DNA from: a virus
Length of the DNA: 64,000 nt
Virus genome (UHGV): UHGV-0170778
Direction: 5' to 3' (one strand)
Shown: one piece after another, positions 24,835 through 39,089 of the stretch
Numbering within the stretch: position 1 is the stretch's first letter
How the letters are laid out: each line of letters begins with the position of its first letter
Notes under the pieces: model-generated
Database searches by the model: none
What the model saw: only the letters and a program-made list of their open reading frames with translations
What the model was told of the DNA's origin: nothing
Program-made: the position numbers and the translations under genes

Positions 24835-26829
24835 ATGGCTAAAATAGTCATAAATGAAATTTCACAAAACTATACATACAACATTGGTTCATCTTCTTTT
24901 GCAACTGTTGCATTTCCGATTACAGCTGCTTGGGGACCTGCTTTTGTTGACGAAGAGACTTCTTTCTTTCAGCCTGCATCAAAGGCAGCTGGAAAAACAA
25001 TAGACGATGCATTAGAAAATACTGCATTTATTAGATTCCCTGCAACTCAAGCAGGTCTAGAGGCATTTGTTTCTACTTATCGTGGACCAGAAACAAATTA
25101 TAGAATGACAAAAGATTATTCTTACTACATTGCAATGACTCTGCTTACTGCAGGATATGATGTTCTGGTGTGTCGTGTTTGCCCAGGAACGAAAGCAGAG
25201 GTTTGGTATGATTCAGATAAGCATTCATCTTCTGCAGTAGCTCCCACAAATGGATTGCATATATCTGCAAAATATCCTGGTAGTTTTGGTAATCAACTTT
25301 CTGTAGTTGTTAAAGAAGTGTCTAAAGGTACTGTATCTGTAACTACTGGAGAAGAAGCTCATCAGAAAACAGAAACTAAAGCTGCTCCTGAGGCCTATTG
25401 GAACTTGATTGTATATGCAGAAGATTCATCAGGTACAAGAACAGCAGTTGAGAATCTCTCATTTGTATGTGACGAAACTGATTCAACAGATACATTGCTT
25501 TATGTAGATGAAGTTTCTTCTTCTTTTATAGATATAACTAAAATAGGCAATATAAATGATGAGTTAATGCAGAGTAAAATGAGCACCATTGAACTGTCTG
25601 GCGGAGATGATTATGCAAAGGTCGATGGTTCAGCTACTTCTTCAACTTTATTAGCTGAAGCTGTAAAATACGCAACATATAGATACACTGCTGCATTAGG
25701 TACAGAGATCGGAGCAAATAGTAAATATGTTAAAGCTCTTACAGCTGTAGATGGGTCTAAGACAGATAAATCTAAAGCAAAAGCAATTCGACACAATGAG
25801 TGGGTATATTGTGCAGCTTACACAGTATATGATTTGTTGACAGACAGATTGTCCTACAATCCAAATAGAATTGTTTCTCCTGGTTGGGATGATCAGTGGT
25901 TTGAGTTTTTCGGAAGTAAAGTAGATGAATCTACTGGAATTACAGAAATTTCTCCTTTACATAAGAAATTGATGTATGTAGGATATTACAGCCGTTGCGG
26001 AACTGCATTGATCGACATCCCTCGTTCAGAGCCTAGAAAATTTGTATATAATGATAAAGTAGGCTCTGAAGGATATGCGCAGATGCTTTCAGCGTCCGGT
26101 ACAGCTACAAATGTAGGCATTGAAGGATCTACAGTAGTTGTAGCAGGACTTACAGACAATCTGTATGATACACATTCTGCTTTGTTTGCTCCTTGGGGAC
26201 AATATAAATACGTAGGAACAGGAAAGCAAAACGCTGCTGCTCCGTCATTCTTAGCATTGATGATCCAGAGAGCAATGATTCTAAATCAGTCACTTCAGTA
26301 TGAATGGGCTTTACCTACAAACAGACAGCATAATCTAAAAATCGGCAAACTTGATTACATTGTTAACAACAAACTTCTAAATGAGTGGCAGTCATTAGAA
26401 GGTGTAGGCGTAAATGTAATCACAGATATTCCAGGTTCAGGTACAACATTATGGGGCAACTCTACTCTATATGATGTTCCACCTGCAACATATCAAGCAC
26501 TTGCAAACCTTTCAACTCGTTATCTAGTAAACGCAGTAGAAGATGTAGCTTTCAGATGTGGTATGCAGATTACATTCCGCTACAATAACCAAGAAGCTTA
26601 CAGTTCATTCTATGCAGGATGTACTCCAATTCTAGACACTATGAAGAATGTAGGTGCAATTGAAGATTATTACATTGAGATGTCTGCTGACATTGATAAA
26701 TTATCTTCAGTCAATGCAAATACAGTTGTAGGTAAAATCTATCTAGTCGTAAACGGCGTAATCAATGATATCTACATCGACCTTATCGCATTGCCACAAG
26801 GTACAGATCTGAGTCAGTATAGAAGCTAA
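24835..26829 (+). CDS. tail sheath protein (T4 gp18-like)
   Basis: 664 aa. N-terminal ITAAWGPAF matches gp18 GKFQWGPAF. C-terminal TLWGNSTLYDVPPATYQALANLSTRYLVNAVEDVAFRCGMQITFRYNNQEAYSSF parallels gp18 VLYGDKTATSVPSPFDRINVRRLFNMLKTNIGRSSKYRLFELNNAFTRSSF. AGGAGG RBS. Confidence 0.8.
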   Translation: MAKIVINEISQNYTYNIGSSSFATVAFPITAAWGPAFVDEETSFFQPASKAAGKTIDDALENTAFIRFPATQAGLEAFVSTYRGPETNYRMTKDYSYYIAMTLLTAGYDVLVCRVCPGTKAEVWYDSDKHSSSAVAPTNGLHISAKYPGSFGNQLSVVVKEVSKGTVSVTTGEEAHQKTETKAAPEAYWNLIVYAEDSSGTRTAVENLSFVCDETDSTDTLLYVDEVSSSFIDITKIGNINDELMQSKMSTIELSGGDDYAKVDGSATSSTLLAEAVKYATYRYTAALGTEIGANSKYVKALTAVDGSKTDKSKAKAIRHNEWVYCAAYTVYDLLTDRLSYNPNRIVSPGWDDQWFEFFGSKVDESTGITEISPLHKKLMYVGYYSRCGTALIDIPRSEPRKFVYNDKVGSEGYAQMLSASGTATNVGIEGSTVVVAGLTDNLYDTHSALFAPWGQYKYVGTGKQNAAAPSFLALMIQRAMILNQSLQYEWALPTNRQHNLKIGKLDYIVNNKLLNEWQSLEGVGVNVITDIPGSGTTLWGNSTLYDVPPATYQALANLSTRYLVNAVEDVAFRCGMQITFRYNNQEAYSSFYAGCTPILDTMKNVGAIEDYYIEMSADIDKLSSVNANTVVGKIYLVVNGVINDIYIDLIALPQGTDLSQYRS

Positions 26830-26834
26830 TTCGT

Positions 26835-26917
26835 TATATATGTTGAAGAGGGACACCGACGGCCATCGTTGCTTTGCTTCCTTGACAAGTTAAGCTAACC
26901 TCTTCAACATACATATA
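26835..26917 (+). other. long imperfect hairpin (16-17 bp stem, ~47-nt GC-richer loop) downstream of the sheath gene
   Basis: ATATATGTTGAAGAGG ... CCTCTTCAACATACATATAT. Possible terminator or structured RNA. Confidence 0.3.
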
Positions 26918-26938
26918 TATTAGATTATAGGAGATATT

Positions 26939-27271
26939 ATGAAAATATACGCAAAGCAAGTAAATTCAGATTATCAACTTTTGTATCAACTTTTCTTAGA
27001 TGCACTAGAAGATAAAGTTCGTTCTTATGGTAAAGACATCTTAGATGATATGTTGTCTCCGATTGATCAGTACAACAATTCATTTATAGTAAAAGATGGA
27101 AGATACATACATGTAATTGAGGTAAAACGAGAAGATGGTAGTAGGTTTATCTTAAAGTACTATAAAGAAGACGAATTGAAATATATTGATTATTACAAGT
27201 CAGCAGAAAAGGCAGCTATTGCATGGTACTCAAAAATTGTGTATCCAGAAATATCTAAAAATAGATATTGA
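26939..27271 (+). CDS. hypothetical protein
   Basis: 110 aa; N-terminus MKIY. Confidence 0.35.
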   Translation: MKIYAKQVNSDYQLLYQLFLDALEDKVRSYGKDILDDMLSPIDQYNNSFIVKDGRYIHVIEVKREDGSRFILKYYKEDELKYIDYYKSAEKAAIAWYSKIVYPEISKNRY

Positions 27272-27300
27272 TATGTGTAGACAATAGAAAGTTATGATAT

Positions 27301-27837
27301 ATGGTAATAAACAAAATATTAACTAAAATAAAAATATATGATGTAAATGAATTTGCTCACAAAGTGTATGAGAATTATGAATATTTTAATAAGCTTTGTA
27401 GACAATTAGCGGATGCTTTAGGGTACATGGTAGATGCTAATATCAGATATTCGGACAGTTCTATTGAATTTATACAAGATGACGCAGGAGGGCACCTAAT
27501 CATTAGTATAAATGTTAAATACATTTCAGGGAACAAATATCTGGAGAATTCCACCTATTATAAAGACACAGAGTGTTATGTGGAAAGGATAGGCGATACT
27601 TTTAAGATAATATTCCCATTTGTAAGAATGAATGTAGTACCTGAAAACATACCTCATAGCCAAATTCGAAACTTTAATTTTTTTGTAAATTATTTTGTAG
27701 AGAGTTTTCTTTATTGCTATTTGGGATATAGTTCTTTTACTTTTGATATCTATGACGCATTAGAATCACGTTATGCAGATATTGATCAAAGACGACGAGA
27801 GATAATTAGTTATAAAAATAGATTTATGGAGGAATAA
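27301..27837 (+). CDS. hypothetical protein
   Basis: 178 aa. Confidence 0.35.
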   Translation: MVINKILTKIKIYDVNEFAHKVYENYEYFNKLCRQLADALGYMVDANIRYSDSSIEFIQDDAGGHLIISINVKYISGNKYLENSTYYKDTECYVERIGDTFKIIFPFVRMNVVPENIPHSQIRNFNFFVNYFVESFLYCYLGYSSFTFDIYDALESRYADIDQRRREIISYKNRFMEE

Positions 27838-27839
27838 AA

Positions 27840-28226
27840 ATGAAAATATATATTAAATGTAATAGTTCTGACTTTAAGATTTCTTATAGAGGAAATTACA
27901 ATCTGGATAACAAGCTAGTAAGTAAAGATAAATTCATAAATGATATGAAGAATTTCTTTGCACGTGTTTTACCTGATTTTGGAATCTATTCTGTTATAAT
28001 CAGCAATGCAAAATTGGATATGAATATAACAGACACAGATGTAAAAGGTTTTAATTTTGAAGAAGATGACAGATTAGGTATTTCGTTCAATATTTCTGCA
28101 AACGGTCAAAAATTGAACGTTTCTACAGAATATGTATATGTTGATGATGAATTTGTAAATGCAGATGATATATATGACAGAACAGATGAAGCTCAAGAGA
28201 TAGGAGAATTATTGTCTGGTGAATAA
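27840..28226 (+). CDS. hypothetical protein
   Basis: 128 aa. The MKIYIKCNSSDFKISY N-terminus resembles ORF 58300 (MKIYVRCSNDVEDY). Confidence 0.35.
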   Translation: MKIYIKCNSSDFKISYRGNYNLDNKLVSKDKFINDMKNFFARVLPDFGIYSVIISNAKLDMNITDTDVKGFNFEEDDRLGISFNISANGQKLNVSTEYVYVDDEFVNADDIYDRTDEAQEIGELLSGE

Positions 28227-28276
28227 ATAAATCAAAAAGAGCTATTGTAGCTAAATAAAATAAAGGATTACGCAAA

Positions 28277-28459
28277 ATGAAAATATATACATCTAGATGG
28301 GTAGATAAACCTGGGGAGATGTTAGATTTAGGTAATAAATTAGCTGATTTATTTGTTACTACTAATATACATGAATATCTCAGTGAAGATGAAATGGATC
28401 AGATAGCAGAAGTTTCAGATATGCTAAAAGATGTTGCTAAGTTGATGAAAGAAAAATAA
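28277..28459 (+). CDS. hypothetical protein
   Basis: 60 aa; N-terminus MKIY. Confidence 0.3.
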   Translation: MKIYTSRWVDKPGEMLDLGNKLADLFVTTNIHEYLSEDEMDQIAEVSDMLKDVAKLMKEK

Positions 28460-28485
28460 TTTAGTGTATATAGCCGAATAGCCCA

Positions 28486-28520
28486 AGCAGCAAGACTTTG
28501 ATCTTGCTGCTGTTTCTATA
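28486..28520 (+). terminator. rho-independent terminator (cassette copy 1)
   Basis: AAGCAGCAAGA-CTTTGA-TCTTGCTGCT stem-loop followed by a T-rich run. Confidence 0.55.
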
Positions 28521-28549
28521 TTAAAACATTAAGAAACTATTAAGATCTA

Positions 28550-28578
28550 TTGAAATTAGGTCAATATTTCGTTATAAT
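28550..28578 (+). promoter_or_regulatory. sigma-A-type promoter TTGAAA-17-TATAAT (cassette copy 1)
   Basis: Exact 17-nt spacing, about 50 nt upstream of ORF 28629. Confidence 0.55.
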
Positions 28579-28628
28579 ATGTATGTGTAAAGTAGATAAA
28601 TTGATACACACAGGGAGAAAAATACAAA

Positions 28629-29495
28629 ATGGATACAAATGTTGACTATGAGAATCTGAAAGAAATTACAGTAAACACACAAGAAGAATTAAACAGAATA
28701 CCGCTTGATTTCAAAGGAAGAATTTATGTAGAGTTTGGTACTTATGATAATCCAGCTATTGTTGAGAATGAGTATAGTTTAAGGGTTGTTGCTAGAAAAG
28801 GTTCATGTATAGAAGCTAGAAAAGACGCATATGTTGAGGCTGAAGATAAATCAATGGTTATTGCTCGAGAGGAGTCCAATGCAGTTGCGAATGATAATTC
28901 AAGCATTGAGGCTCGAGATAATTCAAAAGTTTATGCATATAATACTTCAAGAATTGTTGCTTGGGGTCGTTCAAGAGTTTTCTCTGAGGATGATGCAATC
29001 ATTGAAGCTCGAGAGCATTCGACAGTTAAAGCTTGGAAGAGGTCAATCATCGCTGCATATGATAGGTCAACCGTCATTGCTTACAATAAGTCTAGTGTTG
29101 TTGCTTGGGGTAAGTCAAAAGTTCATTCTGAGAATAGATGCAGCGTTGAGACTCATGATCAGTCAAAGGTGACTGCGTTAGGGTATTCAAAAGTTGAGGC
29201 ATATGATCAGTCAACTGTTCAAGCTTATCAACAGTCAGACGTTGTGTCCTATGATAATTCAGTTGTTGTTGCTAAAGAGTCAGCAATCGTTAATTCTTAT
29301 GATAATTCAATCGTTGTTGCTAATGGGCATTCAAGCGTAGAGGCTGAAGGAAAATCATTAGTTACTGCTCATAACAATTCTAGCGTTGTTGCTCGTGACA
29401 ATTCAGACGTTACGGCTATGGATGATTCAACTGTTGAGTCCTATGATAATTCAACTGTTGAGCTTCGCGATAATGCACAGCTGGTCAATGCGTAA
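28629..29495 (+). CDS. decapeptide tandem-repeat protein (predicted beta-solenoid)
   Basis: 288 aa. About 20 consecutive 10-residue units of the pattern x-S-x-V-x-A-x-(D/N/G)-x-S, for example YDNSVVVAKE, SAIVNSYDNS, IVVANGHSSV. GGGAG RBS. Confidence 0.6.
   Translation: MDTNVDYENLKEITVNTQEELNRIPLDFKGRIYVEFGTYDNPAIVENEYSLRVVARKGSCIEARKDAYVEAEDKSMVIAREESNAVANDNSSIEARDNSKVYAYNTSRIVAWGRSRVFSEDDAIIEAREHSTVKAWKRSIIAAYDRSTVIAYNKSSVVAWGKSKVHSENRCSVETHDQSKVTALGYSKVEAYDQSTVQAYQQSDVVSYDNSVVVAKESAIVNSYDNSIVVANGHSSVEAEGKSLVTAHNNSSVVARDNSDVTAMDDSTVESYDNSTVELRDNAQLVNA
28860..29485 (+). repeat. about 20 degenerate in-frame 30-bp tandem repeats, coding
   Basis: The GATAATTCAA(N)GTTGTTGCT(N)... period of 30 nt is visible directly. 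Boundaries approximate. Confidence 0.6.
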
Positions 29496-29542
29496 AGTTT
29501 GTAGGTAAATATATAAGCAGTCAGGACATTATATTTAACAAA

Positions 29543-29577
29543 AGCAGCAAGAAATTGATCTTGCTGCTATTTTTATG
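29543..29577 (+). terminator. rho-independent terminator (cassette copy 2)
   Basis: AGCAGCAAGA-AATTGA-TCTTGCTGCT followed by ATTTTTAT. Confidence 0.6.
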
Positions 29578-29607
29578 TCCAAAATATTAAAAAACTATTA
29601 AGAACAC

Positions 29608-29636
29608 TTGAATTTATATCAATATTTCGTTATAAT
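29608..29636 (+). promoter_or_regulatory. sigma-A-type promoter TTGAAT-17-TATAAT (cassette copy 2)
   Basis: Identical over ~110 nt to copy 3 at 38761-38860. Confidence 0.6.
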
Positions 29637-29670
29637 ATATGTGTAATAAAAGATAGCGGAGGTTAATATT

Positions 29671-29865
29671 ATGTCTACTCTAAAAGAATTATATAAAACA
29701 GAGAAGGGTTTCGACAAAGGTGCAACTCTTTCAGTTTATGAATACTCAGACGGAAGTATACATTATACTTTTCGTGATAGACTTGGAAAACCTTCTAATG
29801 TAGATGGTCACAATGAAGCAGAATTTCTGATTGAAACTTTTAATATGCAGAAACAGAATGCATGA
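29671..29865 (+). CDS. hypothetical protein
   Basis: 64 aa; GGAGG RBS. Confidence 0.4.
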   Translation: MSTLKELYKTEKGFDKGATLSVYEYSDGSIHYTFRDRLGKPSNVDGHNEAEFLIETFNMQKQNA

Positions 29866-29894
29866 AGATTGATTTTTGGAAAGGAGAAAGCACA

Positions 29895-30098
29895 ATGCCA
29901 AGAGTATTGACAGTGGACGGTAGTGTAAAAATCGGAGCATACAGTTTTCCTGATAGGAAAAAGCCCTGTATATGTGTCGAGAAAGGAAACGCTTGTGTTG
30001 TGTACGGCTCTTTCATTGATATTGACCGTGCAAAAGAATTTATGGATGAACTCGCAGCTCTTGTGGGTGCGAGGAATGATAAGGAGGACGAAGAATGA
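29895..30098 (+). CDS. hypothetical protein
   Basis: ATG 29895 follows AAGGAG; the track start is 29862. Confidence 0.35.
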   Translation: MPRVLTVDGSVKIGAYSFPDRKKPCICVEKGNACVVYGSFIDIDRAKEFMDELAALVGARNDKEDEE

Positions 30099-30265
30099 CA
30101 AACTACGAGCGAATAAAAAATATGAGCATTGATGAAATGGCGAACGCCATAAAAAAAGGCCATTTCGGAGACCCGTGTGAGCATTGTTCTTTAAGAAACG
30201 AACCATGTGCATTCTTATGTGTTAAGGGTATTTTAATGTGGCTTAATAGTGGGTTGAAGGAATGA
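30095..30265 (+). CDS. small Cys-containing protein, paralog of ORF 30262
   Basis: 56 aa, below the track cutoff. MTNYERIKNMSIDEMANAI...CEHC...C versus MTNFERIKNMSVDEMASEI...CKEC...C in the next ORF. AGGAGG RBS. Confidence 0.45.
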   Translation: MTNYERIKNMSIDEMANAIKKGHFGDPCEHCSLRNEPCAFLCVKGILMWLNSGLKE

Positions 30266-30453
30266 CGAATTTTGAGCGAATCAAAAATATGAGTGTTGAT
30301 GAAATGGCATCCGAGATTGATAGAATTTCTCATTATTTATGTGATGATTACGGAGGTTACGGATGTAAAGAATGTCCATTTAATTTTTTAGAAAATCGAA
30401 ATTGTAATGCAACAGAATTTGCAAACTGGCTCAATAGTGAGGTAAAAGAATGA
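30262..30453 (+). CDS. small Cys-containing protein, tandem paralog of ORF 30095
   Basis: 63 aa; overlapping stop/start ATGA. Confidence 0.45.
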   Translation: MTNFERIKNMSVDEMASEIDRISHYLCDDYGGYGCKECPFNFLENRNCNATEFANWLNSEVKE

Positions 30454-30821
30454 TAAATAAAACAATGTATGAAAAAGAAAAAGAAATTACTGACAAAATA
30501 GATGCAAAAGAAGCAATAAAAATGTTTCAAAATCTTATATTTGCAGAAAATCATAGAATTGCAGAAAACCATTGTAGAAAACTTGCAATAAAAGCCCTTG
30601 AAAAGCAAACACCACAAAAGCCTATCAAAGAAACGGTAAATCGTGGTATATCAGCATCGGGCGAATATGACATTGATTTTAATTATCTTTGTCCAAATTG
30701 CACGACTGTTGTTGGTGACTATGAAACCAATGATTTTTTTATAAATTTTGCCCCGAGTGTGGTCAAGCATTGGATTGGGGTAAGAGGCCTATTAATTATG
30801 AAATTTATTTTCAAAATCTAA
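30450..30821 (+). CDS. hypothetical protein with CPNC zinc-ribbon-like motif
   Basis: 123 aa. Confidence 0.35.
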   Translation: MINKTMYEKEKEITDKIDAKEAIKMFQNLIFAENHRIAENHCRKLAIKALEKQTPQKPIKETVNRGISASGEYDIDFNYLCPNCTTVVGDYETNDFFINFAPSVVKHWIGVRGLLIMKFIFKI

Positions 30822-30996
30822 CCGCTCTAATGAACAGGTATAACGACGATAATGAAAATTGCATTACATGCAAAGATTGTCTAAATTACGGGCCTTGTGC
30901 AGCCCCATTTAAGTGTGACGATAATACTAGCGTGTATTTCTGTGATGAATTTGTAAACAAAAATTGCAGTGATATTGAGTTAAAGGAGAAAACAAA

Positions 30997-31218
30997 ATGA
31001 GTAATCTCACGCTTAACAACGGCTGGATTAGTGTAAATGACAGACTACCGGACACAAGTAGATATGTGATTGCGTGTTCCGATTTACAAGACGTATTCGA
31101 ATGTTGGTATCGCACCATAGACAAATGTTGGGTAAGACACGGCCATATAGTTGTTGAAAACATTACGCATTGGCGAGAACTACCTGACCCGCCGATAATG
31201 GAGGAGAGCAAAGAATGA
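30997..31218 (+). CDS. DUF551-like phage protein (paralog A)
   Basis: NGWISVNDRLPD...VIACSD...ITHWRELPDPP. Family name is from memory. Confidence 0.45.
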   Translation: MSNLTLNNGWISVNDRLPDTSRYVIACSDLQDVFECWYRTIDKCWVRHGHIVVENITHWRELPDPPIMEESKE

Positions 31219-31540
31219 CTTGTAAAGATTGTCCACATTTTGATGTGTGCAAAATGTATGGTGCATTCCATACAAAGACACGCTGGAAATCATCGGCAAC
31301 ATCCACGATAATCCCGAATTGTTGAAAGGAATAAAAAATGTTTAACTATAAAAAAGCCATACAGAGATATAGAGTTGCTAAAATTTTTGGATTACCTTTT
31401 AAGTTACGCATTAAAGTGTTTTTCAGGGGCAAAGGAACTCCAAAAGAAAATTTTGAAAAAAAGATAATTAATCATAAAAAAGGAGAGCAGGAATGACAGA
31501 TGAAGATGAAATCAATATTGACATCGATTGCTTATAAGCA

Positions 31541-31849
31541 ATGCTTATATATGCAAAACTGGAAAGGAGTAGAAGAATGAACTTAAATTTTGCTGACATT
31601 ATTAAAGACACAAAACTTATTAACCGTTTCTTAAAATGCCACGATGACAGCATTTTAACAGATAACGGTTGGATTAGTGTAAACGACAAACTTCCAAATA
31701 ACGATGAAGACGTAATTGCGCTGTCTGATTCTGGAGATTCACTTGTCTGTCGATATAATAATGATATGAAGCGTTGGGAAAAGTACGGTTTTACATTAGA
31801 TATGAATTTTATTTATTGGAGAGAACTGTACAAATACAGAAAGGATTAA
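31541..31849 (+). CDS. DUF551-like phage protein (paralog B)
   Basis: DNGWISVNDKLPNNDEDVIALSD...FIYWRELYKY, paralogous to ORF 30997. Confidence 0.45.
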   Translation: MLIYAKLERSRRMNLNFADIIKDTKLINRFLKCHDDSILTDNGWISVNDKLPNNDEDVIALSDSGDSLVCRYNNDMKRWEKYGFTLDMNFIYWRELYKYRKD

Positions 31850-31853
31850 GTCA

Positions 31854-32228
31854 ATGACCAACAAAGAAAGAAAACAGACCGGTCTGTTGCATTCAGCAGA
31901 TGAACTGAAACGGCTCATTTTAGAACACCAAGAGTTGCCGATTTTGGTACTTGCCGGAGATAATGCGAACACTGGCGACTATGGCTTTATGAGTTGTAGC
32001 CGTGTACGCGCACAAGAAGGCGAGTTTCTTGATTGTAAGCAGAAAATCGACGCATGCAAGTGCTACACAGATAGGGATGACTTTGAAGACGATGTGGCAG
32101 ATTTTTTGGCTGGTGAAGAACAGTATAGAGATTTGCCGGACGATGAATTTAATGCCCTCGTTGAGCAAACAGTCAATGAGTACGATGATTTTTGGAAGCC
32201 ATGCATTCTATTGCATGTAGACAATTGA
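31854..32228 (+). CDS. hypothetical acidic protein
   Basis: 124 aa. Confidence 0.35.
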   Translation: MTNKERKQTGLLHSADELKRLILEHQELPILVLAGDNANTGDYGFMSCSRVRAQEGEFLDCKQKIDACKCYTDRDDFEDDVADFLAGEEQYRDLPDDEFNALVEQTVNEYDDFWKPCILLHVDN

Positions 32229-32397
32229 GGAGGATTAACTATGATGCTCTCATGTAATCGATTTGCGTTTATTCCACATTTGTGTCTTGAATGCAAACGT
32301 TATATTTGGCTTGAGGGATATAGAAGAGCTGAAGTTTGGAAAAAATCTGTAGATATGAACATCAAAGAAAATATTTGCAAAAGTTGTCTAGAAAAAT

Positions 32398-32610
32398 TTG
32401 ATGTTGGGATTGATAAATGAAAGGAGAAAAATGGCTGACAAATTTGTTATTTGCAATAACGAAGACGAAATAAGATCGAATGAATCATGTTATGGTAATC
32501 AAACATTTGAAATTTCGGCAAAAGATCTTATAGCTCTTTTTGAAGGAAAGACACTTGCTGCAATGGTAAATGATGAATACGGTATATTTATTGAAATAGA
32601 GCCAACTTAG
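32398..32610 (+). CDS. hypothetical protein
   Basis: 70 aa; GGAG RBS. Confidence 0.35.
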   Translation: MMLGLINERRKMADKFVICNNEDEIRSNESCYGNQTFEISAKDLIALFEGKTLAAMVNDEYGIFIEIEPT

Positions 32611-32816
32611 AATCTCAAGGAGAATCAAGCATGAAATTTATAGAGGTAGAAGAATGAAAGCAGGAGCACATAGAAAAAAGTATAAGTATATACCGCCTGA
32701 AAAGAGAGTAAGCAAAAAAGAGCAAGAAAGGATAATGCGTAGGGAGCTTCGTAAAGCTATGCGAAAAGCAAGTCCGTTTTATGCTTGGGTTGAAGATAAT
32801 TGTGAAAGGTATTTTG

Positions 32817-33032
32817 ATGATGAAGTGTGAAAATTGTATTCATTTTGAGCTTTGTCCTGTGTGGGACAAGGATAACAATCGCCCTTATAAAGACGGCTAT
32901 AGTTATTTCTGTCAAAATTACAGTAGATTCATAGATAAATCGCAAATAATCAAGTTACCTATGAAGACAACAGATAAACTGAAAGAAGAATTAACAAAAT
33001 ACTGTTACGAAAGGTGTGTTGATGAGTTATGA
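32817..33032 (+). CDS. small CxxC protein (MKCENCIHFELC family)
   Basis: ATG 32817 follows a GAAAGG SD. Related to MTCKDC(Y/P)H(Y/F)xVCK ORFs at 31216 and 33029. Confidence 0.35.
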   Translation: MMKCENCIHFELCPVWDKDNNRPYKDGYSYFCQNYSRFIDKSQIIKLPMKTTDKLKEELTKYCYERCVDEL

Positions 33033-33430
33033 CTTGCAAAGATTGTTACCACTATGGTGTATGCAAATTTTATAATAAGAATTTACCAGAAGAATATGAC
33101 CATATTGAGTGGCAATGCGACAGTTTCAAGGACAAATCATGCATTGTTGAATTGCCCTGTAAGGCTGGGGAAACAGTATATTGTCTTGATGACATTGTAG
33201 ATAATGAATTATGTGCTGACTGTGAACACTATTATGAGGGTGGTATGGGTGATTATCCGAGTTGTCAAAAAACTCGTTATGGTTTTAGACCTGCAAAATG
33301 TATCGAAATTATCGAGATAGTCGCAGATAATGATTTCGTGTTGAAATATTACAACGAGTTTGGTGAAAAAATATTTCTCACCAAAGAGGAAGCAGAAGCA
33401 AAACTGAAGGAGTTGAACGGAAATGAATAA
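33029..33430 (+). CDS. small CxxC protein (MTCKDCYHYGVCK family)
   Basis: 133 aa with three CxxC pairs. Paralog of the 31216..31326 mini-ORF MTCKDCPHFDVCK. Confidence 0.4.
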   Translation: MTCKDCYHYGVCKFYNKNLPEEYDHIEWQCDSFKDKSCIVELPCKAGETVYCLDDIVDNELCADCEHYYEGGMGDYPSCQKTRYGFRPAKCIEIIEIVADNDFVLKYYNEFGEKIFLTKEEAEAKLKELNGNE

Positions 33431-33629
33431 AGAATTAGCAAGATATTTTGTGAAATTGATTGCGGAAGATTTGCAATTTTCATTCAATGGGATGGGTATT
33501 CCAAGTTATCTTTGTGAATGGTTAGAAAATCAGTTAATACAAGAAAATTATGATGAAGTCGAAGAATTTATAAAGAAAAGATATGACGAACGCGAAAGCA
33601 CAAGAAAGAAAACACGTGATGAAACTTAA
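33423..33629 (+). CDS. hypothetical protein
   Basis: 68 aa. Confidence 0.3.
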   Translation: MNKELARYFVKLIAEDLQFSFNGMGIPSYLCEWLENQLIQENYDEVEEFIKKRYDERESTRKKTRDET

Positions 33630-33667
33630 AATTATTGATAGCTTAAAATCAAGGAGGTAAGTTAGCT

Positions 33668-34129
33668 TTGGAAATAGATGAAATGAAATATTTCCTTAGT
33701 AATGAACTAAGTGAACTTTCAGATATAACAGGGATGTACTTTGATATTCAGTCAGTTGTATATCGAGAAAATTTACATATATGCATTCAAAAATTAAAGT
33801 TAAGGGCATTTCATCAAGATATCTGCTTTGAATGTAAACTAGACATAAACAATGCAATAGCACACTTTGCTTCTTTGATAGCTATGTGCTATGTTATAGA
33901 TGGTGAATATTTATATGAAACAGACAGCTTACTTTATGCTAACCAATTCAAAGCACAAAAATTCGTCATCGAAGTTGTAGATAAGTTCAATGAAATATAC
34001 AACAACTGCAAAGATGTAGAAAAGAGCATAAACGCACTTGAAGCATTTTATGAAACAAACTATGAAGTAAACACACAGGTTGACGATGAAAGATCATTTA
34101 GTATGAGTAAGGATAATAGTGAACTATGA
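33668..34129 (+). CDS. hypothetical protein
   Basis: 153 aa; GGAGG RBS. Confidence 0.35.
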   Translation: MEIDEMKYFLSNELSELSDITGMYFDIQSVVYRENLHICIQKLKLRAFHQDICFECKLDINNAIAHFASLIAMCYVIDGEYLYETDSLLYANQFKAQKFVIEVVDKFNEIYNNCKDVEKSINALEAFYETNYEVNTQVDDERSFSMSKDNSEL

Positions 34130-34241
34130 CACATTAGATGCGTTGTTGTACAGAGTATGTCTACTATATTGCAATGCAAGACTAAAGTATTCATATATGT
34201 ACATAGAAATGACCAGGTAAATTACCTGTTCTGTATTTTTG

Positions 34242-35939
34242 TTATTTTACATATGCATAAACAGCTTGACCACAATCATAAACAGGTAACCATCCGTGAT
34301 CAATCATCAATTCTTCATTTGAGGTTCCTTTTCCGTAATCTGTGTTGAAAAGTTGATCGTATCCTCGTTGACGTAAGAGATTTGCAGTTATTTTATTATT
34401 CTCCAACGACCATATTTCTTGAGGAGGTGTATTCTTAACAAAATGCATACCTAATTTGCTATAAACAGATCCGTCAAATTTAGATAAATCACAATAGGAA
34501 ATTATATTGTTCAGATGATAATGAGAGACGGCGTATTTGAAGAGTTTTGAAGCCCCGCCAGTAATTTTATATCTACTGTTTGAGCAAAGTCGAAGAAGTT
34601 CATATTGATAGTTTCTATTATATCTAGAATTACCAAAAGTCATCACTTCAACAAGTTCTCCTTTATACATCAATCCTACTCGAATATTCTGTCCTTTACA
34701 TGTATTCTGGATATGATACTTACATAAGAATTCGTCGCATTCTTTCTTACCTATCTCTACAATTTTGCAGTTACGGGCATATATAACTTCTTTCTTTGTC
34801 AATAGCTGGATGACTTTGTCCCAGTTATCCCAATCAAAGATATGAATACATCTGAATCCGTTTTCTTTAGCAATATTAGTCTTCTCTAAATGGTAACCTT
34901 TATCTACAGTAACATTCCAATGGTTTCCAACAATGTTGTGAGTATAAGTAGGATCAATTTCTATTAGAATGTTAGTGTCAAGTATGTGTAAGTCGTAAAA
35001 TTTTCCACTTAGATAAAATTCTAACTCTCCGTTTTCATTTGCTGCTTTTACAGCATCTAAAAATTTCAAATTTGTTTTAGATATCCTGTTTTTTCTGCAC
35101 TGAGCGTCATTTGTCAAGCAGCCATAAGGAACTCCGTATTTCTTCATACATGTTTCTTGTATTTTCATTTGAATTGTTTCAGATTTTGAAGGGTTATCTA
35201 CTCCTAAGTGTTCGATCCAAGTCTGCTTTGCTTTTTCGTCTATTTCGTCAGGCCAAAAAGACCCATAGTTCGCTATTCTATGTTCCATAGCTATTTTATT
35301 TATTGATTCCACCTGCATTGGATTTTCTTTTCCATATCGTTCCATCATTGTTTGTTTTGCTTTTTCTGTAAATTGATCTATTTTAGATGGATTAGCTTTG
35401 CCATACTTTGCCTCCATAGTTGCTTTGTATTTATCATATAACTGTTTACTCTGTAAAGTAGTAGGAGCACCGTATCGTTCAGTCATAGTTTTCATTGATT
35501 TTTTCTTTATTTCTGGATCGCTCAATGCCCAGTCAACACCAAATTTCTTCTGGTTAGATGCTTTTGCTTTTTCATAAAATTGATCTGATTGCAAAGCAAA
35601 TTCAACACCATACTTATCTTTCATAGATTTTCTGTGATGAGCTTGAACTTCTTTGTTTTGCATAGGATGATCTACACCATATTTTTCTCTACATCTCATC
35701 TTTCGTAATTGAGCTTTACATTCTTTGGAACACGGAGGAGGCTGTTGTCTTGAATTCCATATCATTTGTTTACCACAAACAGGGCAAGGAACATAATGAT
35801 CGTCATTACATATTTTAGTAGAACTTCTTTCTGGCATAAATATTTTGCCACATATAACACATTTCTTCGGACTCTTTGGAACACCTTTAGGCATATAATA
35901 AATCTCACTTTCAATATTATTATTAAATATAAGGTACAT
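34242..35939 (-). CDS. Zn-ribbon / Vsr-like homing-endonuclease-like protein with extra C-terminal domain
   Basis: The only convincing minus-strand gene in the window. N-terminal CVICGK...CPVCGK zinc ribbons and repeated KYG(V)..P.Q modules. Nuclease core ILIEIDPTYTHN...GFRCIHIFDWD. A ~190-aa C-terminal domain (ARNCKIVEI...YHIQNTCKGQ...LLRLCS) is shared with ORF 36652. Confidence 0.55.
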   Translation of the reverse strand: MYLIFNNNIESEIYYMPKGVPKSPKKCVICGKIFMPERSSTKICNDDHYVPCPVCGKQMIWNSRQQPPPCSKECKAQLRKMRCREKYGVDHPMQNKEVQAHHRKSMKDKYGVEFALQSDQFYEKAKASNQKKFGVDWALSDPEIKKKSMKTMTERYGAPTTLQSKQLYDKYKATMEAKYGKANPSKIDQFTEKAKQTMMERYGKENPMQVESINKIAMEHRIANYGSFWPDEIDEKAKQTWIEHLGVDNPSKSETIQMKIQETCMKKYGVPYGCLTNDAQCRKNRISKTNLKFLDAVKAANENGELEFYLSGKFYDLHILDTNILIEIDPTYTHNIVGNHWNVTVDKGYHLEKTNIAKENGFRCIHIFDWDNWDKVIQLLTKKEVIYARNCKIVEIGKKECDEFLCKYHIQNTCKGQNIRVGLMYKGELVEVMTFGNSRYNRNYQYELLRLCSNSRYKITGGASKLFKYAVSHYHLNNIISYCDLSKFDGSVYSKLGMHFVKNTPPQEIWSLENNKITANLLRQRGYDQLFNTDYGKGTSNEELMIDHGWLPVYDCGQAVYAYVK

Positions 35940-36022
35940 ATAATATAACGAAATTCAAAAACGAATTGAAACCTTATATACTCATAGAACAACAAAGTTA
36001 AAAATATAAAGGAGATTTATAT

Positions 36023-36568
36023 ATGTTTACACCATTAGCAATGGGAACAAATCACATGTTAGGCGTAGATTCTTATGTCCCCCTAACAACAAACAACTTT
36101 GAAATTCGAGTGTATAACATGGATGGAAGTGTACCAACAGAATTCTCAGAATTGTTAACATTGAGCACTGATGAAATTGGAGCTATCCAGGAAGAAGAAG
36201 ATCAGATCGTTGTACATTATGGAAATGGTCTAATCAAATTCCCGAGTAAAGTATCTTTCAACGATGTAGACTGGACATTGAATTGCTATTGCTCTCCTAA
36301 TGTTTATGAAAATCTTCGTGCTTGGAGAAAAATGGTTTATGATCCTGATACAGAGAGAATGGGTCTTCCTACGGAGTATATGAAGCAAGTCTATTTCATT
36401 AGATATGATGGCCAAGGAAATTGCAGAGATGTAATTAAGTGTCCAGGCTGCTGGCCAGGAGCTCTCAATAATGGTTCCATGAACCAGACTGGTGGTGAAC
36501 TAGTTAAAGTAAGTTTGCCGCTAGTTATTTCCAGAGTCATCTACTTGAAACCTGAAGATTTTCAGTAA
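36023..36568 (+). CDS. tail tube protein (T4 gp19-like)
   Basis: 181 aa. FEIRVYNMDG, SFNDVDWTLNCY and IKCPGCWPG...ELVKVSLPLVISRVIY parallel gp19 FQVEISYLGQ, FDDWTVTVMN and IKGLWPTN...EVTLALDY. Confidence 0.6.
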   Translation: MFTPLAMGTNHMLGVDSYVPLTTNNFEIRVYNMDGSVPTEFSELLTLSTDEIGAIQEEEDQIVVHYGNGLIKFPSKVSFNDVDWTLNCYCSPNVYENLRAWRKMVYDPDTERMGLPTEYMKQVYFIRYDGQGNCRDVIKCPGCWPGALNNGSMNQTGGELVKVSLPLVISRVIYLKPEDFQ

Positions 36569-36651
36569 TTGAAGTCAAAATTTACAGTCAAGGCAAGCTA
36601 AGGAACATAACCTTTTATCTATTCGTTATATAGATAGGAGGTTATGTTTTT

Positions 36652-38211
36652 ATGATCAAAAAATGTAAGATATGCGGAAAAGAGTTTGAAGCATATGGTA
36701 CTTCTGAATATTGCCCAGGCCCTCACTATAAAAAATGTGCTGTTTGTGGTAAAGAGTTTGAATGGGATAGATTGCATCCTAAGAAATGTTGTTCGAGGAA
36801 ATGTGCAGCAGCTCTTCGACTTTCTACTATATCATCAGAAACAAGAATATGCGAACTTTGTGGGAAAGAATTTCATCCTAATAATAGTACGCAAAAATAC
36901 TGTAAAGATGATCATTACAGACCTTGTCCTGTGTGTGGGAAACCAATTAAAATAACTGAAGACACAAGCATTACTTCTTGTTGTTCTGTTGAATGTAGTA
37001 ATGAGCTTAGAAAGAGGACATGTATTGATAAATATGGAGTTCCTATTGTATCTCAGAATGACGAAATACGACAGAAATTGAGTCAAGCTTCAATAGAATC
37101 AGAAAATAAGAGAAAAGAAACATGTATCAAACGATATGGAGTTGAATTCGCTTCTAAATATTCTGAGGTTAGAAGAAAAATATCGAATACAGTTAAAAGC
37201 AAAGAATGTCAAAGTAGAATTAGAAATACGACACAACACAAGTATGGAGTTCCGTTCGTAATGCAATGCGAAGAAGGATTATCTAGATATAGAAAAACAA
37301 TAGAATCTAAATATGGAGTTCCATATTTTTGTATGACAGATAAATGCAAAGACTCGCAAGGGAAAGTAATTTCGACTCTAAATAAAAGTTTTGGAAACTT
37401 ATTGAGTCAAAATAACATACCATATACATTTGAATACAAGATAGAGAATAGATCGTATGATATTTGCGTCCCTGGATCAAAAACACTGATCGAAATTGAT
37501 CCTACATATACTCATAATGTTATTGGAAATTGTTGGGGACCTGGCTTAGAGATCAATTATCATATAGAGAAGACAAAATTAGCAAATGAATATGGATTCA
37601 GGTGTATTCATATTTGGGATTGGGATGATTGGGATAAGATAATAAATATCATCAGGCCAAAATCCGTCATATATGCTAGAAAATGTAAAATAAGTGTGAT
37701 TGATCGAAAAACAGCAGAATCTTTTGAAATTGATAATCATTTACAAGGCGCTGTAAAAGGACAATCTATTTGCTTAGGTCTATTTTATTGCAATGATCTA
37801 GTACAGGTCATGACTTTCGGTAAACCTAGGTACAATAAAAACTACGATTGGGAACTGCTTAGACTCTGTTCCATTTCTGATTATGCAGTTGTAGGCGGAG
37901 CAGAGAAGCTATGGAAATATTTCATAAGTAGACATGTATCAGATTCAGTTATTTCTTATTGTGATTTGTCTAAATTCAAAGGAGATGTTTACACGAGATT
38001 AGGTATGTCCTTAGACTTTGTAAACGAACCCAATAAAATATGGTCTAAGAAATCTGAAATGATAACCAATAACTTACTCCTTCAACGAGGGTACGATCAA
38101 TTATTCAATACAAATTATGGAAAGGGGACCTCAAACGAAGAATTGATGCTGGAACACGGATGGTTGCCGGTTTATGATTGTGGTCAAGCAAGATATACAT
38201 GGAGTAATTGA
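36652..38211 (+). CDS. Zn-ribbon / Vsr-like homing-endonuclease-like protein with extra C-terminal domain (paralog of 34242..35939)
   Basis: CKICGK, CAVCGK, CELCGK, CPVCGK ribbons. RYGVEFASKYSEVRRK-type repeats. LIEIDPTYTHN...GFRCIHIWDWDDWDKI nuclease core. C-terminal domain collinear with the minus-strand paralog. Confidence 0.55.
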   Translation: MIKKCKICGKEFEAYGTSEYCPGPHYKKCAVCGKEFEWDRLHPKKCCSRKCAAALRLSTISSETRICELCGKEFHPNNSTQKYCKDDHYRPCPVCGKPIKITEDTSITSCCSVECSNELRKRTCIDKYGVPIVSQNDEIRQKLSQASIESENKRKETCIKRYGVEFASKYSEVRRKISNTVKSKECQSRIRNTTQHKYGVPFVMQCEEGLSRYRKTIESKYGVPYFCMTDKCKDSQGKVISTLNKSFGNLLSQNNIPYTFEYKIENRSYDICVPGSKTLIEIDPTYTHNVIGNCWGPGLEINYHIEKTKLANEYGFRCIHIWDWDDWDKIINIIRPKSVIYARKCKISVIDRKTAESFEIDNHLQGAVKGQSICLGLFYCNDLVQVMTFGKPRYNKNYDWELLRLCSISDYAVVGGAEKLWKYFISRHVSDSVISYCDLSKFKGDVYTRLGMSLDFVNEPNKIWSKKSEMITNNLLLQRGYDQLFNTNYGKGTSNEELMLEHGWLPVYDCGQARYTWSN

Positions 38212-38363
38212 TTGTAAATTGCATACTAGTATGATATTTTGAATATGTATGCATGAAATTTAATTCAATGATATGTATAATATATAATACAGTAATTAAA
38301 TAAAAATAGTCATCTAAATATAACCTTATTTACGTGTAAATAAATATTATTAAGGAGTTTATC

Positions 38364-38732: not shown

Positions 38733-38745
38733 TTAAAATCAAAAC

Positions 38746-38777: not shown

Positions 38778-38809
38778 TGTCCAAAATATTAAAAAACTAT
38801 TAAGAACAC

Positions 38810-39071: not shown

Positions 39072-39089
39072 TTGAAAGGAGTATTACAC

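What the first reader, a model, noticed from the sequence alone, without database searches (positions are those of the whole stretch)
26830..36022. 9 kb hyperplastic accessory island inserted between the tail sheath and tail tube genes
Sheath and tube genes are normally adjacent in myoviruses. Here they are separated by about 25 small genes. These include paralogous pairs: MTNYERIKNMSIDEMA and MTNFERIKNMSVDEMA at 30095 and 30262; DUF551-like at 30997 and 31541; MTCKDC-H--VCK at 31216 and 33029 with a related ORF at 32817. The island also holds several CxxC mini-proteins, two promoter cassettes and an antisense homing endonuclease gene. Tandem paralog duplication and the cassettes indicate ongoing gain and shuffling of morons in a late-gene region.
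Basis: seen in the sequence. Interest (0 to 1): 0.55.

Follow-up and report, generated by a model that had tools for sequence, protein, structure and literature searches.

The report
Fast-changing accessory gene region splitting tail genes
In an uncultured large tailed phage, the 9 kb between the tail sheath and tail tube genes is a real hot spot where small accessory genes, repeated terminator-promoter cassettes and selfish nuclease genes are swapped between near-identical phages; this kind of region is already known from T4-like phages.

Summary
Sheath (24835-26829) and tube (36023-36568) are separated by 9.2 kb holding 22-24 genes. These include three small paralogous families, nine CxxC proteins, two about 100-nt terminator-promoter cassettes and an antisense Hef-like homing endonuclease.

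I compared eight genomes with an identical tube protein and about 93-98% identical flanks. Their sheath-tube intervals hold 66 orthologue groups; only 2 occur in all eight and 37 are singletons. Module order is rearranged, and complete intervals measure 9.2, 9.6 and 13.2 kb. Flanking DNA aligns 100%.

Homology breakpoints sit at gene boundaries: 16 of 23 lie within 30 nt, against 23% by chance. One sister genome carries a chimeric cassette, which points to crossover inside the cassette.

Sister islands hold Tad8 anti-Thoeris genes, GIY-YIG and Hef-like endonucleases and a TnpB insertion.

Two corrections. The paralogs are old (42-43% identity), not recent tandem duplicates. The locus is a long-standing plastic region of the lineage, not one insertion.

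This is a hyperplastic region with PeSL-like cassettes, as described in T4-type phages, found in a distant uncultured lineage. I file it as a new member of a known kind.

The parts
24835..26829 (+). Tail sheath gene; conserved left flank
   Evidence: phrog_23, E 1.9e-12. 83-96% identical homologues exist. The upstream 10 kb is about 95.6% identical to sister K119.
26830..26920 (+). Structured 91-nt element right after the sheath stop. It begins with the motif TTCGTTATA. A sense Hef-like endonuclease gene is inserted just after it in L051 and L048.
   Evidence: RNA fold -26 kcal/mol, z -4.0. Motif. Insertion junction.
26939..27271 (+). g26939, 110 aa. Left-anchor gene kept in sisters at 94% identity.
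27301..28226 (+). g27301 (178 aa) and g27840 (128 aa). A two-gene indel, absent from K119, L051 and L045.
   Evidence: blastn breakpoints at 27289 and 28257
28277..28459 (+). g28277, 60 aa. Kept in sisters at 88-97% identity.
28485..28586 (+). Terminator-promoter cassette 1: hairpin 28487-28510, T run, TTGAAA-17-TATAAT at 28550-28578
   Evidence: Hairpin -18 kcal/mol, z -5.4.
28629..29495 (+). g28629, 288 aa. Acidic protein built from an 8-residue repeat, predicted as a beta-solenoid. It is flanked by cassettes 1 and 2, so its layout is moron-like.
   Evidence: 24/48-nt periodic repeats. phrog_15773. Single-sequence AF2 pLDDT 92.8; only weak generic beta-helix matches. Net charge -15.
29542..29644 (+). 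Terminator-promoter cassette 2
   Evidence: Its closest copies in sisters sit at the downstream-of-tube position.
29671..30098 (+). g29671 (64 aa; shared with K119, L056, L057) and g29862 (78 aa)
30095..30453 (+). Paralog pair g30095 and g30262, the MTN(Y/F)ERIKNMS family (phrog_2999)
   Evidence: 42% identity, E 8e-11. phrog_2999, E 4e-10 and 2e-6. 1-3 copies in sisters.
30450..30821 (+). g30450, 123 aa, one CxxC
30830..31000 (+). Cys-family member 1 (inner ATG of ORF 30770-31000)
30997..31218 (+). DUF551 protein, 73 aa
   Evidence: PF04448, E 2e-12, 48 bits
31215..31325 (+). 36-aa truncated Cys-family ORF, likely a remnant. The depositor did not call it.
31338..31496 (+). g31338, 52 aa, basic
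31541..31849 (+). DUF551-like paralog
   Evidence: blastp E 1e-15 to g30997. Pfam 21.6 bits against a cut-off of 22.
31854..32830 (+). g31854 (124 aa), g32241 (59 aa, 2x CxxC), g32398 (about 60-70 aa) and g32654 (58 aa). These modules sit in a different order in L056 and L057.
32817..33430 (+). Cys-family members g32781 (from Met 32817) and g33029 (133 aa). Conserved motif C3-x2-C6-x5-C12-x17-C30.
33423..33629 (+). g33423, 68 aa. In sisters a Tad8-containing module follows here; the window lacks it.
33668..34129 (+). g33668, 148-153 aa. Right-anchor gene, present in all 8 sister genomes.
   Evidence: 93-96% nt identity
34242..35939 (-). Antisense Hef-like (DUF7487) free-standing homing endonuclease gene. 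Four sisters carry a deletion of about 237 nt inside it (238 nt, with a frameshift, in L051).
35936..35954 (-). Cassette-like -10 element (ATTTCGTTATATTATATGT) upstream of the antisense endonuclease gene
   Evidence: (I12)
36023..36568 (+). Tail tube gene. A conserved islet bracketed by the two endonuclease genes.
   Evidence: phrog_4542. The identical protein occurs on 24 or more contigs. 97-99% nt identity.
36576..38328 (+). Sense Hef-like endonuclease module (gene 36652-38211) with its own TTCGTTATA element at 36622. Absent from K119 and L053.
   Evidence: 39% identity to the antisense copy. Empty site shown.
38745..38845 (+). Terminator-promoter cassette 3, in the second plastic stretch downstream of the tube gene

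Best explanation
This is a hyperplastic region (HPR) of a large uncultured myovirus with a T4-type portal. It is a long-standing recombination hot spot at the sheath-tube junction, where small, mostly orphan and mostly acidic accessory genes are gained, lost, replaced and reordered as gene-sized modules.

Three processes are inferred to drive this:
1. Homologous exchange within repeated terminator-promoter cassettes of about 100 nt. These resemble the PeSLs of T4-type phages. They also give the modules their own sigma-70-type, probably early, transcription and shield the tail genes from read-through.
2. Recombination at short conserved gene-boundary or N-terminal sequences.
3. Double-strand-break repair started by free-standing homing endonucleases that nest around the tube gene: Hef-like here, plus GIY-YIG in sisters. 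Occasional TnpB element insertions add to this.

The cargo is probably host-takeover or anti-defence genes.

Shown: the anatomy, the population-level mosaicism, breakpoints at gene boundaries, one chimeric cassette, and presence/absence polymorphisms of mobile elements.

Inferred: promoter and terminator activity, expression timing, the recombination mechanism, endonuclease activity and cargo function.
For: Plasticity is confined to this locus. Window versus sisters aligns 100% per kb over 15-26 kb and 41-48 kb. It aligns 0-86% over 27-33 kb and only partly over 36.6-40.7 kb.

Gene content. Eight genomes share an identical tube protein. Their intervals hold 66 orthologue groups; 2 are universal and 37 are singletons. 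Module order differs in L056 and L057. Complete intervals are 9196, 9626 and 13230 bp.

More distant relatives. None of the 23 small proteins is found near the tube gene of 40 IMG/VR relatives, apart from one DUF551. The gap there ranges from 16 bp to more than 9.9 kb. Loci without endonuclease genes have gaps of 1 kb or less; loci with them have 2.3 kb or more.

Breakpoints. 16 of 23 distinct homology breakpoints lie within 30 nt of a gene start or stop, against 23% expected; 0 of 5000 simulations reach this.

Cassettes:
- Exactly 3 copies in 64 kb, all in the plastic zone, with 0 expected.
- Hairpins fold at -16 to -18 kcal/mol, z -4.6 to -5.4, and are followed by T runs.
- They hold the best sigma-70-like matches of the region.
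- Sisters carry 1-4 copies in their islands, with different left and right neighbour genes.
- L051_4871 is a chimera: the 5' half of one cassette type joined to the 3' tail of another.
- Nine contig ends of independent assemblies fall inside cassette copies.

Mobile elements:
- The sense endonuclease gene is absent from K119 and L053.
- The antisense gene is degenerate in L051.
- A 1433-bp TnpB insertion sits after 35977 in L052 (the L055 alignment shows the same junction).
- A 670-aa Hef-like gene follows the sheath in L051 and L048.
- GIY-YIG genes occur in four sister islands.

Cargo. Tad8 (PF25189) occurs in at least four sister islands, E 5e-21 to 7e-30. DarA_C lies at window 39922-40110.

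Precedent. PeSL-mediated shuffling in HPRs: PMC2839356, PMC4122927. Endonuclease genes bracketing essential genes: PMC10448857.
Against: Function and timing. No expression data exist, so promoter and terminator function and early timing are consensus-level predictions only.

Cassettes. The window's island has only two, and most of its breakpoints are not at cassettes. Cassette exchange can therefore explain only part of the shuffling. The chimeric cassette is a single case. g28629, the one gene flanked by cassettes, is present in every sister whose left end is seen, so no excision product was observed.

Endonucleases. The link between endonuclease genes and gap size is partly built in, and the loci are phylogenetically related.

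Cargo. No window island protein matches a known anti-defence family. Tad8 is in sisters only.

Lineage. The phage is only distantly related to T4 (portal 24% identical or less), so the HPR/PeSL framework is applied by analogy.
Confidence: 0.8

Rival explanations
1. This is a stable, lineage-specific block of early or middle genes that happens to lie between sheath and tube. It is inherited vertically. The differences seen are ordinary sequence divergence, not modular exchange.
For: The separation of sheath and tube is widespread in the lineage. The window's own arrangement is stable across three assemblies at 99.75-100% identity. The anchor genes g26939, g28277, g28629 and g33668 and the antisense endonuclease gene are conserved in sisters.
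Against: Genomes with identical tube proteins and 93-98% identical flanks share only 2 of 66 orthologue groups across all eight. Blocks of 91-95% identity alternate with unalignable DNA. Module order differs between genomes. Divergence alone cannot produce such sharp breakpoints at gene boundaries.
Confidence: 0.05
2. The island is essentially a nest of homing endonucleases. Repeated homing and decay of Hef-like and GIY-YIG genes at the conserved sheath and tube targets, with co-conversion of neighbouring DNA, accounts for all the variability. On this view the cassettes are ordinary regulatory signals with no role in recombination.
For: Endonuclease genes or remnants fill 0.5-4.2 kb of the gap in 12 of 15 distinct IMG/VR loci. 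Loci without them have gaps of 1 kb or less. Presence/absence and degenerate copies occur in sisters. Nuclease genes are known to mark boundaries of exchange between phages (PMC10448857).
Against: The most variable stretch of the window (29.9-33.6 kb) is 1-4 kb from the nearest endonuclease gene. It varies between sisters that share the same antisense copy. The chimeric cassette, and the swap of cassette types between the island and downstream positions, point to exchange inside cassettes.
Confidence: 0.12
3. Metagenome assembly artefact: the island is a chimeric join of fragments from different phages at repeated cassettes.
For: Nine contig ends fall inside cassette repeats, so these repeats do confuse assemblers.
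Against: The stretch 30311-39491 is reproduced at 99.75% identity in L058, from a different ENA assembly accession. The stretch up to 29588 is reproduced at 100% in a Logan assembly. Several contigs of 118-126 kb span the whole interval with collinear flanks.
Confidence: 0.03

Closest known systems
Hyperplastic regions (HPRs) with PeSL promoter/stem-loop cassettes of T4-type phages (phi1/RB49, PST/T4, nt-1/KVP40; PMC2839356, PMC4122927)
   Same: Clusters of small orphan genes lie between conserved core blocks. Indels and replacements distinguish about 95% identical phages. Repeated composite motifs of about 100 nt combine a sigma-70-like promoter with a stable stem-loop, and they sit preferentially in the plastic region and upstream of orphan genes. 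One gene is flanked by two cassettes, as ORF192 is in RB49.
   Different: The lineage is uncultured and only distantly related (portal 24% identical or less to any cultured phage). Its ribosome-binding sites and promoters look Gram-positive-like, which is my inference. The region splits sheath from tube. I know of no T4-type HPR reported at that junction, but I did not check this systematically. Only 2-4 cassettes occur per island, against dozens per T4-type genome. The hairpin lies upstream of the -35 box with an invariant 9-bp stem. No mini-circles or reporter activity could be tested.
Free-standing Hef-type homing endonucleases (Sandegren et al. 2005, as cited in PMC3239194, which assigns Hef-type enzymes to the Vsr-like 'EDxHD' family) and 'HEG islands' (PMC10448857)
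   Same: The window's two endonucleases align over 98% of their length with the gene annotated Hef in Campylobacter phage IBB_35 (27% identity, E 7e-44). They are free-standing, lie next to an essential structural gene, bracket it, and show presence/absence among close relatives.
   Different: They are only 27% identical to annotated Hef genes. The catalytic motif and cleavage were not verified. The bracketed unit is a single 546-bp gene, not an island of more than 10 kb.
Campylobacter T4-related phages CP220/CPt10 (PMC2853527)
   Same: T4-like structural genes are dispersed: sheath gene CPT_0053 and tube gene CPT_0058 are separated by intervening genes. These genomes also carry putative homing endonucleases and IS605-type TnpB elements.
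   Different: The lineage is different. No cassette-bounded small-gene island was described there.
Morons of lambdoid and P2-like prophages (my own knowledge: Juhala/Hendrix definition)
   Same: g28629 has a predicted promoter upstream and a terminator downstream, and it sits between tail genes transcribed in the same direction.
   Different: The other island genes lack individual promoter/terminator pairs. Base composition is not distinct. The phage is probably virulent, so benefit to a lysogen is unlikely.

Membership tests
Hyperplastic region (HPR) of T4-type phages | Cluster of small, mostly orphan, non-core genes between blocks of conserved core genes | tested here: met
   22-24 genes. 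Only DUF551 and DUF7487 pass the Pfam cut-off; the PHROG hits are all of unknown function. Flanks align 100%.
Hyperplastic region (HPR) of T4-type phages | Content differs by indels and replacements between closely related phages | tested here: met
   66 orthologue groups in 8 genomes with identical tube protein; 2 universal, 37 singletons. Mosaic blocks.
Hyperplastic region (HPR) of T4-type phages | The phage belongs to the T4 superfamily | tested here: inconclusive
   T4-type portal (PF07230), but 24% identity or less to any cultured phage. The sheath has no tblastn match in 50,697 phage records.
PeSL (promoter-early stem-loop) cassette | Sigma-70-like -35/-10 promoter combined with a stable stem-loop in a conserved repeat of about 100 nt | tested here: met
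   TTGAAW-17-TATAAT plus a 9-10-bp GC-rich hairpin at -16 to -18 kcal/mol. 3 copies against 0 expected.
PeSL (promoter-early stem-loop) cassette | Preferential location in plastic regions, next to variable orphan genes | tested here: met
   All 3 copies in the 64-kb window lie in the 27-40.7 kb plastic zone. In sisters they join different neighbour genes.
PeSL (promoter-early stem-loop) cassette | Recombination between copies produces indels or replacements | tested here: inconclusive
   One chimeric cassette (L051_4871), and cassette types swapped between the island and downstream positions. No excision product of the cassette-flanked gene was seen.
PeSL (promoter-early stem-loop) cassette | Demonstrated promoter and terminator activity; mini-circle formation | not testable with these tools
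   Needs reporter assays, RNA-seq, and PCR or long reads.
Hef-type / DUF7487 free-standing homing endonuclease | Sequence membership | tested here: met
   PF24308, E 7e-34 and 5e-13. phrog_3339, E 1.6e-87 and 9.6e-71. Full-length match to annotated Hef.
Hef-type / DUF7487 free-standing homing endonuclease | Presence/absence at the same site among close relatives (mobility) | tested here: met
   The sense copy (36576-38328) is absent from K119 and L053 with an intact empty site. An extra copy follows the sheath in L051 and L048.
Hef-type / DUF7487 free-standing homing endonuclease | Site-specific cleavage of the endonuclease-free allele | not testable with these tools
   Biochemistry is needed. 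No PDB sequence match for the nuclease domain.
Moron | Single gene with its own promoter and terminator inserted between late genes, absent from relatives, with atypical composition | tested here: inconclusive
   g28629 has the promoter-gene-terminator layout. But it is present in all sisters whose left end is seen, and its GC content is not atypical.
Anti-defence gene island | Holds at least one recognised anti-defence gene | tested here: not met
   No window island protein matches one. Sister islands carry Tad8, and window 39922-40110 (outside the island) is DarA_C.

The most novel reading that the evidence does not exclude
The sheath-tube junction of this gut-phage lineage works as a population-level exchange locus for anti-defence genes. 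Early-promoter cassettes make any imported gene immediately expressible. The pair of inverted Hef-like endonucleases bracketing the essential tube gene drives preferential inheritance of the adjacent cargo in co-infections. On this reading the orphan families here (the MTN, Cys and DUF551 families and the acidic beta-solenoid) would be new inhibitors of bacterial immunity.
Probability: 0.25. Interest if true: 0.6.

Novelty: new member of a known kind. Interest (0 to 1): 0.45.

Why it matters
It extends the HPR/PeSL style of phage genome evolution to an uncultured lineage far from T4. That style combines gene-sized modules, portable terminator-promoter junctions and nested homing endonucleases. 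Until now it was described for T4-type phages of Gram-negative hosts.

It also gives a natural-population snapshot: at least 8 genomes with identical tube proteins but very different islands.

Practically, the island and its sister versions carry Tad8 anti-Thoeris genes. They are therefore a compact place to look for new anti-defence or host-takeover genes by association. The cassette sequence is a simple probe for finding such loci.

Tried and rejected
1. Cultured relatives. megablast of the region and tblastn of the sheath against 50,697 phage records found nothing. Synteny therefore had to come from metagenomes.

2. IMG/VR relatives (tube 64-85% identical) are too distant to judge conservation of small genes. 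Closer genomes came from exact-protein look-ups.

3. Zinc-ribbon test of the Cys family. AF2 with an 83-sequence alignment gave pLDDT 69 overall and 53-57 over the Cys motif. Foldseek against the PDB found nothing with E below 1. Not confirmed and not refuted.

4. g28629. The single-sequence AF2 model is a confident beta-solenoid (pLDDT 92.8), but only generic beta-helix matches with E 0.06 or higher were found. No function can be inferred, and repeat proteins can give over-confident models.

5. Endonuclease fold. PDB sequence search and NCBIfam gave only a weak YacG-like zinc-finger hit.

6. T4-type late promoter TATAAATA is not enriched: 9 found against 11 expected.

7. Rfam and tRNA scans of the region found nothing.

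8. Co-conversion sweep of the tube gene was considered and rejected. The tube is 97-99% identical in nucleotides with an identical protein, which fits purifying selection.

9. Integron-like or MITE-like readings of the cassettes were rejected. There is no integrase and there are no terminal inverted repeats. The TnpB element ends carry no cassette hairpin.

Full report
**Observation**

The window carries a tail sheath gene at 24835-26829 (phrog_23, E 1.9e-12) and a tail tube gene at 36023-36568 (phrog_4542, E 1.9e-10). Between them lie 9193 bp. I read 23 small ORFs on the + strand and one 565-aa antisense ORF. The depositor's gene calls on the source contig give 22 genes. That contig is ENA ERZ1307801 NODE_54, 118,880 bp.

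The listed paralogs are real:
- g30095/g30262: 42% identity, E 8e-11.
- g30997/g31541: 43% identity, E 1e-15.
- g31215/g33029: 73% over 15 aa.
- g32781/g33029: 31% over 68 aa, E 6e-8.
- A fourth Cys-family member lies at about 30830-31000.

DUF551 is confirmed for g30997 (48 bits). It is borderline for g31541 (21.6 bits against a cut-off of 22). Nine of the 23 small proteins carry CxxC.

The antisense ORF is a DUF7487 / phrog_3339 homing endonuclease. It aligns end to end with genes annotated Hef in Campylobacter phages (27% identity, E 7e-44). Hef-type enzymes have been assigned to the Vsr-like EDxHD family (PMC3239194).

A 39%-identical paralog lies on the + strand just after the tube gene, at 36652-38211.

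**The cassettes**

The 'two promoter cassettes' are at 28485-28586 and 29542-29644, and they flank g28629. Each has a perfect 9-10-bp hairpin (GCAGCAAGA-N6-TCTTGCTGC; -16 to -18 kcal/mol, z -4.6 to -5.4). A T run follows, and about 45 nt later comes TTGAAW-17-TATAAT.

Both the hairpin pattern and the 20-nt promoter core occur exactly three times in the 64-kb window, with 0 expected. The third copy is at 38745-38845, downstream of the tube gene.

The shorter core TTCGTTATA occurs 7 times (0.64 expected). It lies right after the sheath stop, in the three cassettes, upstream of each endonuclease gene, and once at 51094.

**Test of the refutation criterion**

No cultured phage resembles this one. 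megablast of the region and tblastn of the sheath found nothing. The portal is 24% identical or less to portals of Streptococcus, Listeria and Bacillus phages and T4-like phages.

Forty IMG/VR relatives have tube proteins 64-85% identical. Their sheath-tube gaps run from 16 bp (L011, L016, L018) through 0.5, 1, 2.3 and 4.6-7.5 kb to more than 9.9 kb. None of the window's 23 small proteins appears near their tube genes, apart from one DUF551.

In these relatives, Hef-like genes or remnants fill 0.5-4.2 kb of the gap. Loci without endonuclease genes have gaps of 1 kb or less.

The decisive comparison uses genomes whose tube protein is identical to the window's. There are 24 or more such contigs, and 10 were fetched. 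Their flanks are 93-98% identical in nucleotides.
- Per-kb alignment is 100% over window 15-26 kb and 41-48 kb. It falls to 0-86% over 27-33 kb and is partial over 36.6-40.7 kb.
- Across eight such genomes the interval holds 66 orthologue groups (70% identity or more). Only two are universal: the g33668-like gene and the antisense endonuclease. Thirty-seven are singletons.
- Complete intervals measure 9196, 9626 and 13230 bp.
- Modules 12-13 precede modules 10-11 in L056 and L057 but follow them in the window.

The window's arrangement is reproduced in other assemblies. L058 is 99.75% identical over 9.2 kb and L044 is 100% identical. This excludes a misassembly.

**How the shuffling happens**

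Twenty-three distinct homology breakpoints were mapped in the island. Sixteen lie within 30 nt of a gene start or stop, against 23% expected; 0 of 5000 simulations reach this. Exchange is therefore in gene-sized modules.

In sister genomes, cassettes join different left neighbours (groups 3, 4, 17, 26, 38, 46) to different right neighbours (groups 4, 18, 27, 39).

In the cassette alignment, L051_4871 combines the 5' half of one cassette type with the 3' tail of another. This is what a crossover inside the conserved promoter core would give. The window's cassette 2 is closest to the downstream-of-tube copies of its sisters, and the reverse also holds.

Nine contig ends of independent assemblies fall inside cassette copies. 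The cassettes therefore behave as true dispersed repeats.

This matches the PeSL model for T4-type hyperplastic regions. In that model, promoter/stem-loop cassettes of about 100 bp both regulate orphan genes and serve as recombination points (PMC2839356, PMC4122927).

The match is partial. Only two cassettes lie in the window's island, and most breakpoints sit at plain gene boundaries. One breakpoint (33064) falls just after the conserved 5' end shared by the Cys-family genes.

**Mobile elements**

The locus is also a nest of selfish elements:
- The sense endonuclease module (36576-38328) is cleanly absent from K119 and L053.
- The antisense gene has a deletion of about 237 nt within its repeat region in four sisters. 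In L051 the gap is 238 nt and the gene is split.
- A 670-aa Hef-like gene sits directly after the sheath in L051 and L048.
- GIY-YIG endonuclease genes occur in four sister islands.
- A 1433-bp TnpB element is inserted between the antisense endonuclease gene and the tube gene in L052, and the L055 alignment shows the same junction.
- In the more distant L038, the tube gene is interrupted by an ORF-less group II intron.

Endonuclease genes bracketing essential genes, and marking boundaries of exchange, have been described before (PMC10448857). Endonuclease-driven amplification of anti-defence loci has also been reported (PMC13096335).

**Cargo**

Most window island proteins are orphans or belong to families of unknown function. 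Sixteen of the 23 have a net negative charge.

The three multi-copy families (MTN/phrog_2999, Cys, DUF551) occur nowhere else in the 64-kb window. Their copy number varies from 0 to 4 among sisters.

The Cys family has 433 unnamed homologues in the large protein collection, some on contigs of several hundred kb. Its invariant or near-invariant residues include C3, C6, C12 and C30. AF2 is not confident over this motif, and no fold match was found.

g28629 is predicted as an acidic beta-solenoid with only generic matches.

At least four sister islands carry Tad8, a type II Thoeris inhibitor domain (E 5e-21 to 7e-30). The window's downstream plastic stretch has a DarA_C protein (39922-40110) and a pentapeptide/DUF5758 protein. 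Tad3-Tad8 are reported to bind TIR domains or Thoeris effectors (PMC13243611).

An anti-defence or host-takeover role for the cargo is therefore plausible. For the window's own genes it is unproven.

1. The paralogs are old: 42-43% protein identity, with DNA similarity only in 49-67-nt patches. They do not show recent tandem duplication.
2. The island is not a single insertion. It is a long-standing hot spot of the lineage.
3. The tube gene is a conserved islet inside a plastic zone of about 14 kb, bracketed by two inverted endonuclease paralogs.

**Verdict**

This is a well-supported hyperplastic region with PeSL-like cassettes and nested Hef-like endonucleases. It is a new member of a known kind. 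It is notable for its position between sheath and tube, for the distant uncultured lineage, and for the clear population-level evidence.

Separation of sheath and tube genes, with endonuclease and TnpB genes elsewhere in the same genomes, is already known in Campylobacter T4-related phages (PMC2853527).

Noticed in passing
window 36576-40740: A second, smaller plastic stretch lies downstream of the tube gene. It holds the polymorphic sense Hef-like endonuclease gene, cassette 3 (38745-38845), a replaced small gene after the cassette, a pentapeptide+DUF5758 protein (39072-39902) and a DarA_C protein (39922-40110). An indel of about 280 bp lies at 40455-40738.
   Followed up: partly
L052 8534-9955 and L055 (same position; after window 35977); L051 14567-15996 (after window about 40122): IS605-type TnpB-only elements (OrfB_IS605 plus Cas12f1-like TNB) are inserted in sister phage genomes without a visible target duplication. 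One sits between the antisense endonuclease gene and the tube gene.
   Followed up: partly
L038 9435-10000: In a more distant relative the tube gene is split after about codon 21-23 by an ORF-less group II intron of about 565 nt. Rfam RF02004 scores 63 bits (gathering 34.5) and RF00029 scores 57.5 bits (gathering 40).
   Followed up: partly
window 28496-28501, 29553-29558, 38755-38760 and the same sites in L049-L057: The 9-bp stems of the cassette hairpins are invariant, while the 6-nt loops differ in nearly every copy. At the orthologous downstream position, L051 has TTCAAT and L057 has its exact reverse complement ATTGAA. This suggests loop inversion by template switching within the palindrome.
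   Followed up: partly
contig ends of L044, L045, L047, L053, L055, L056 (both ends), L057 (both ends): Nine ends of independent metagenome contigs fall inside cassette copies. L056 and L057 are contigs that run exactly from cassette 2 to cassette 3. This is most simply assembly breakage at repeats. Circular cassette-bounded molecules were not excluded.
   Followed up: no
window 25195-25759: There is a variable segment inside the sheath gene. It is 83% identical or unaligned against about 95% for the rest. Sheath lengths run from 653 to 689 aa in close relatives. In L002 and L022 the sheath match is split in two by 0.2-0.6 kb.
   Followed up: no
window 34623-34860 region (nt 35085-35316 on + coordinates): A deletion of about 237 nt in the antisense endonuclease gene of four sisters removes roughly residues 208-286. 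This lies in the tandem 'KYGV..P.Q' repeat array (direct repeats D8 and D17). The presumed DNA-binding repeat array therefore changes copy number.
   Followed up: partly
window 2603-2968: The sense endonuclease gives a weak tblastn match here (31% over 123 aa, E 2e-5). The match falls inside or overlapping the 789-aa ORF 1996-4365 and the alternative-frame ORF 2582-3589. It may be another zinc-finger or endonuclease-related module.
   Followed up: no
L030 10001-10540 and 18439-20511: In this relative the sheath homologue lies about 8 kb downstream of the tube gene on the same strand, so the gene order is reversed.
   Followed up: no
window 19219-20922: The ORF between the MJ0330_N-domain gene and the portal gene has a weak match to the C-terminal part of NAD-dependent DNA ligase LigA (E 2e-15, far below the family cut-off).
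   Followed up: no
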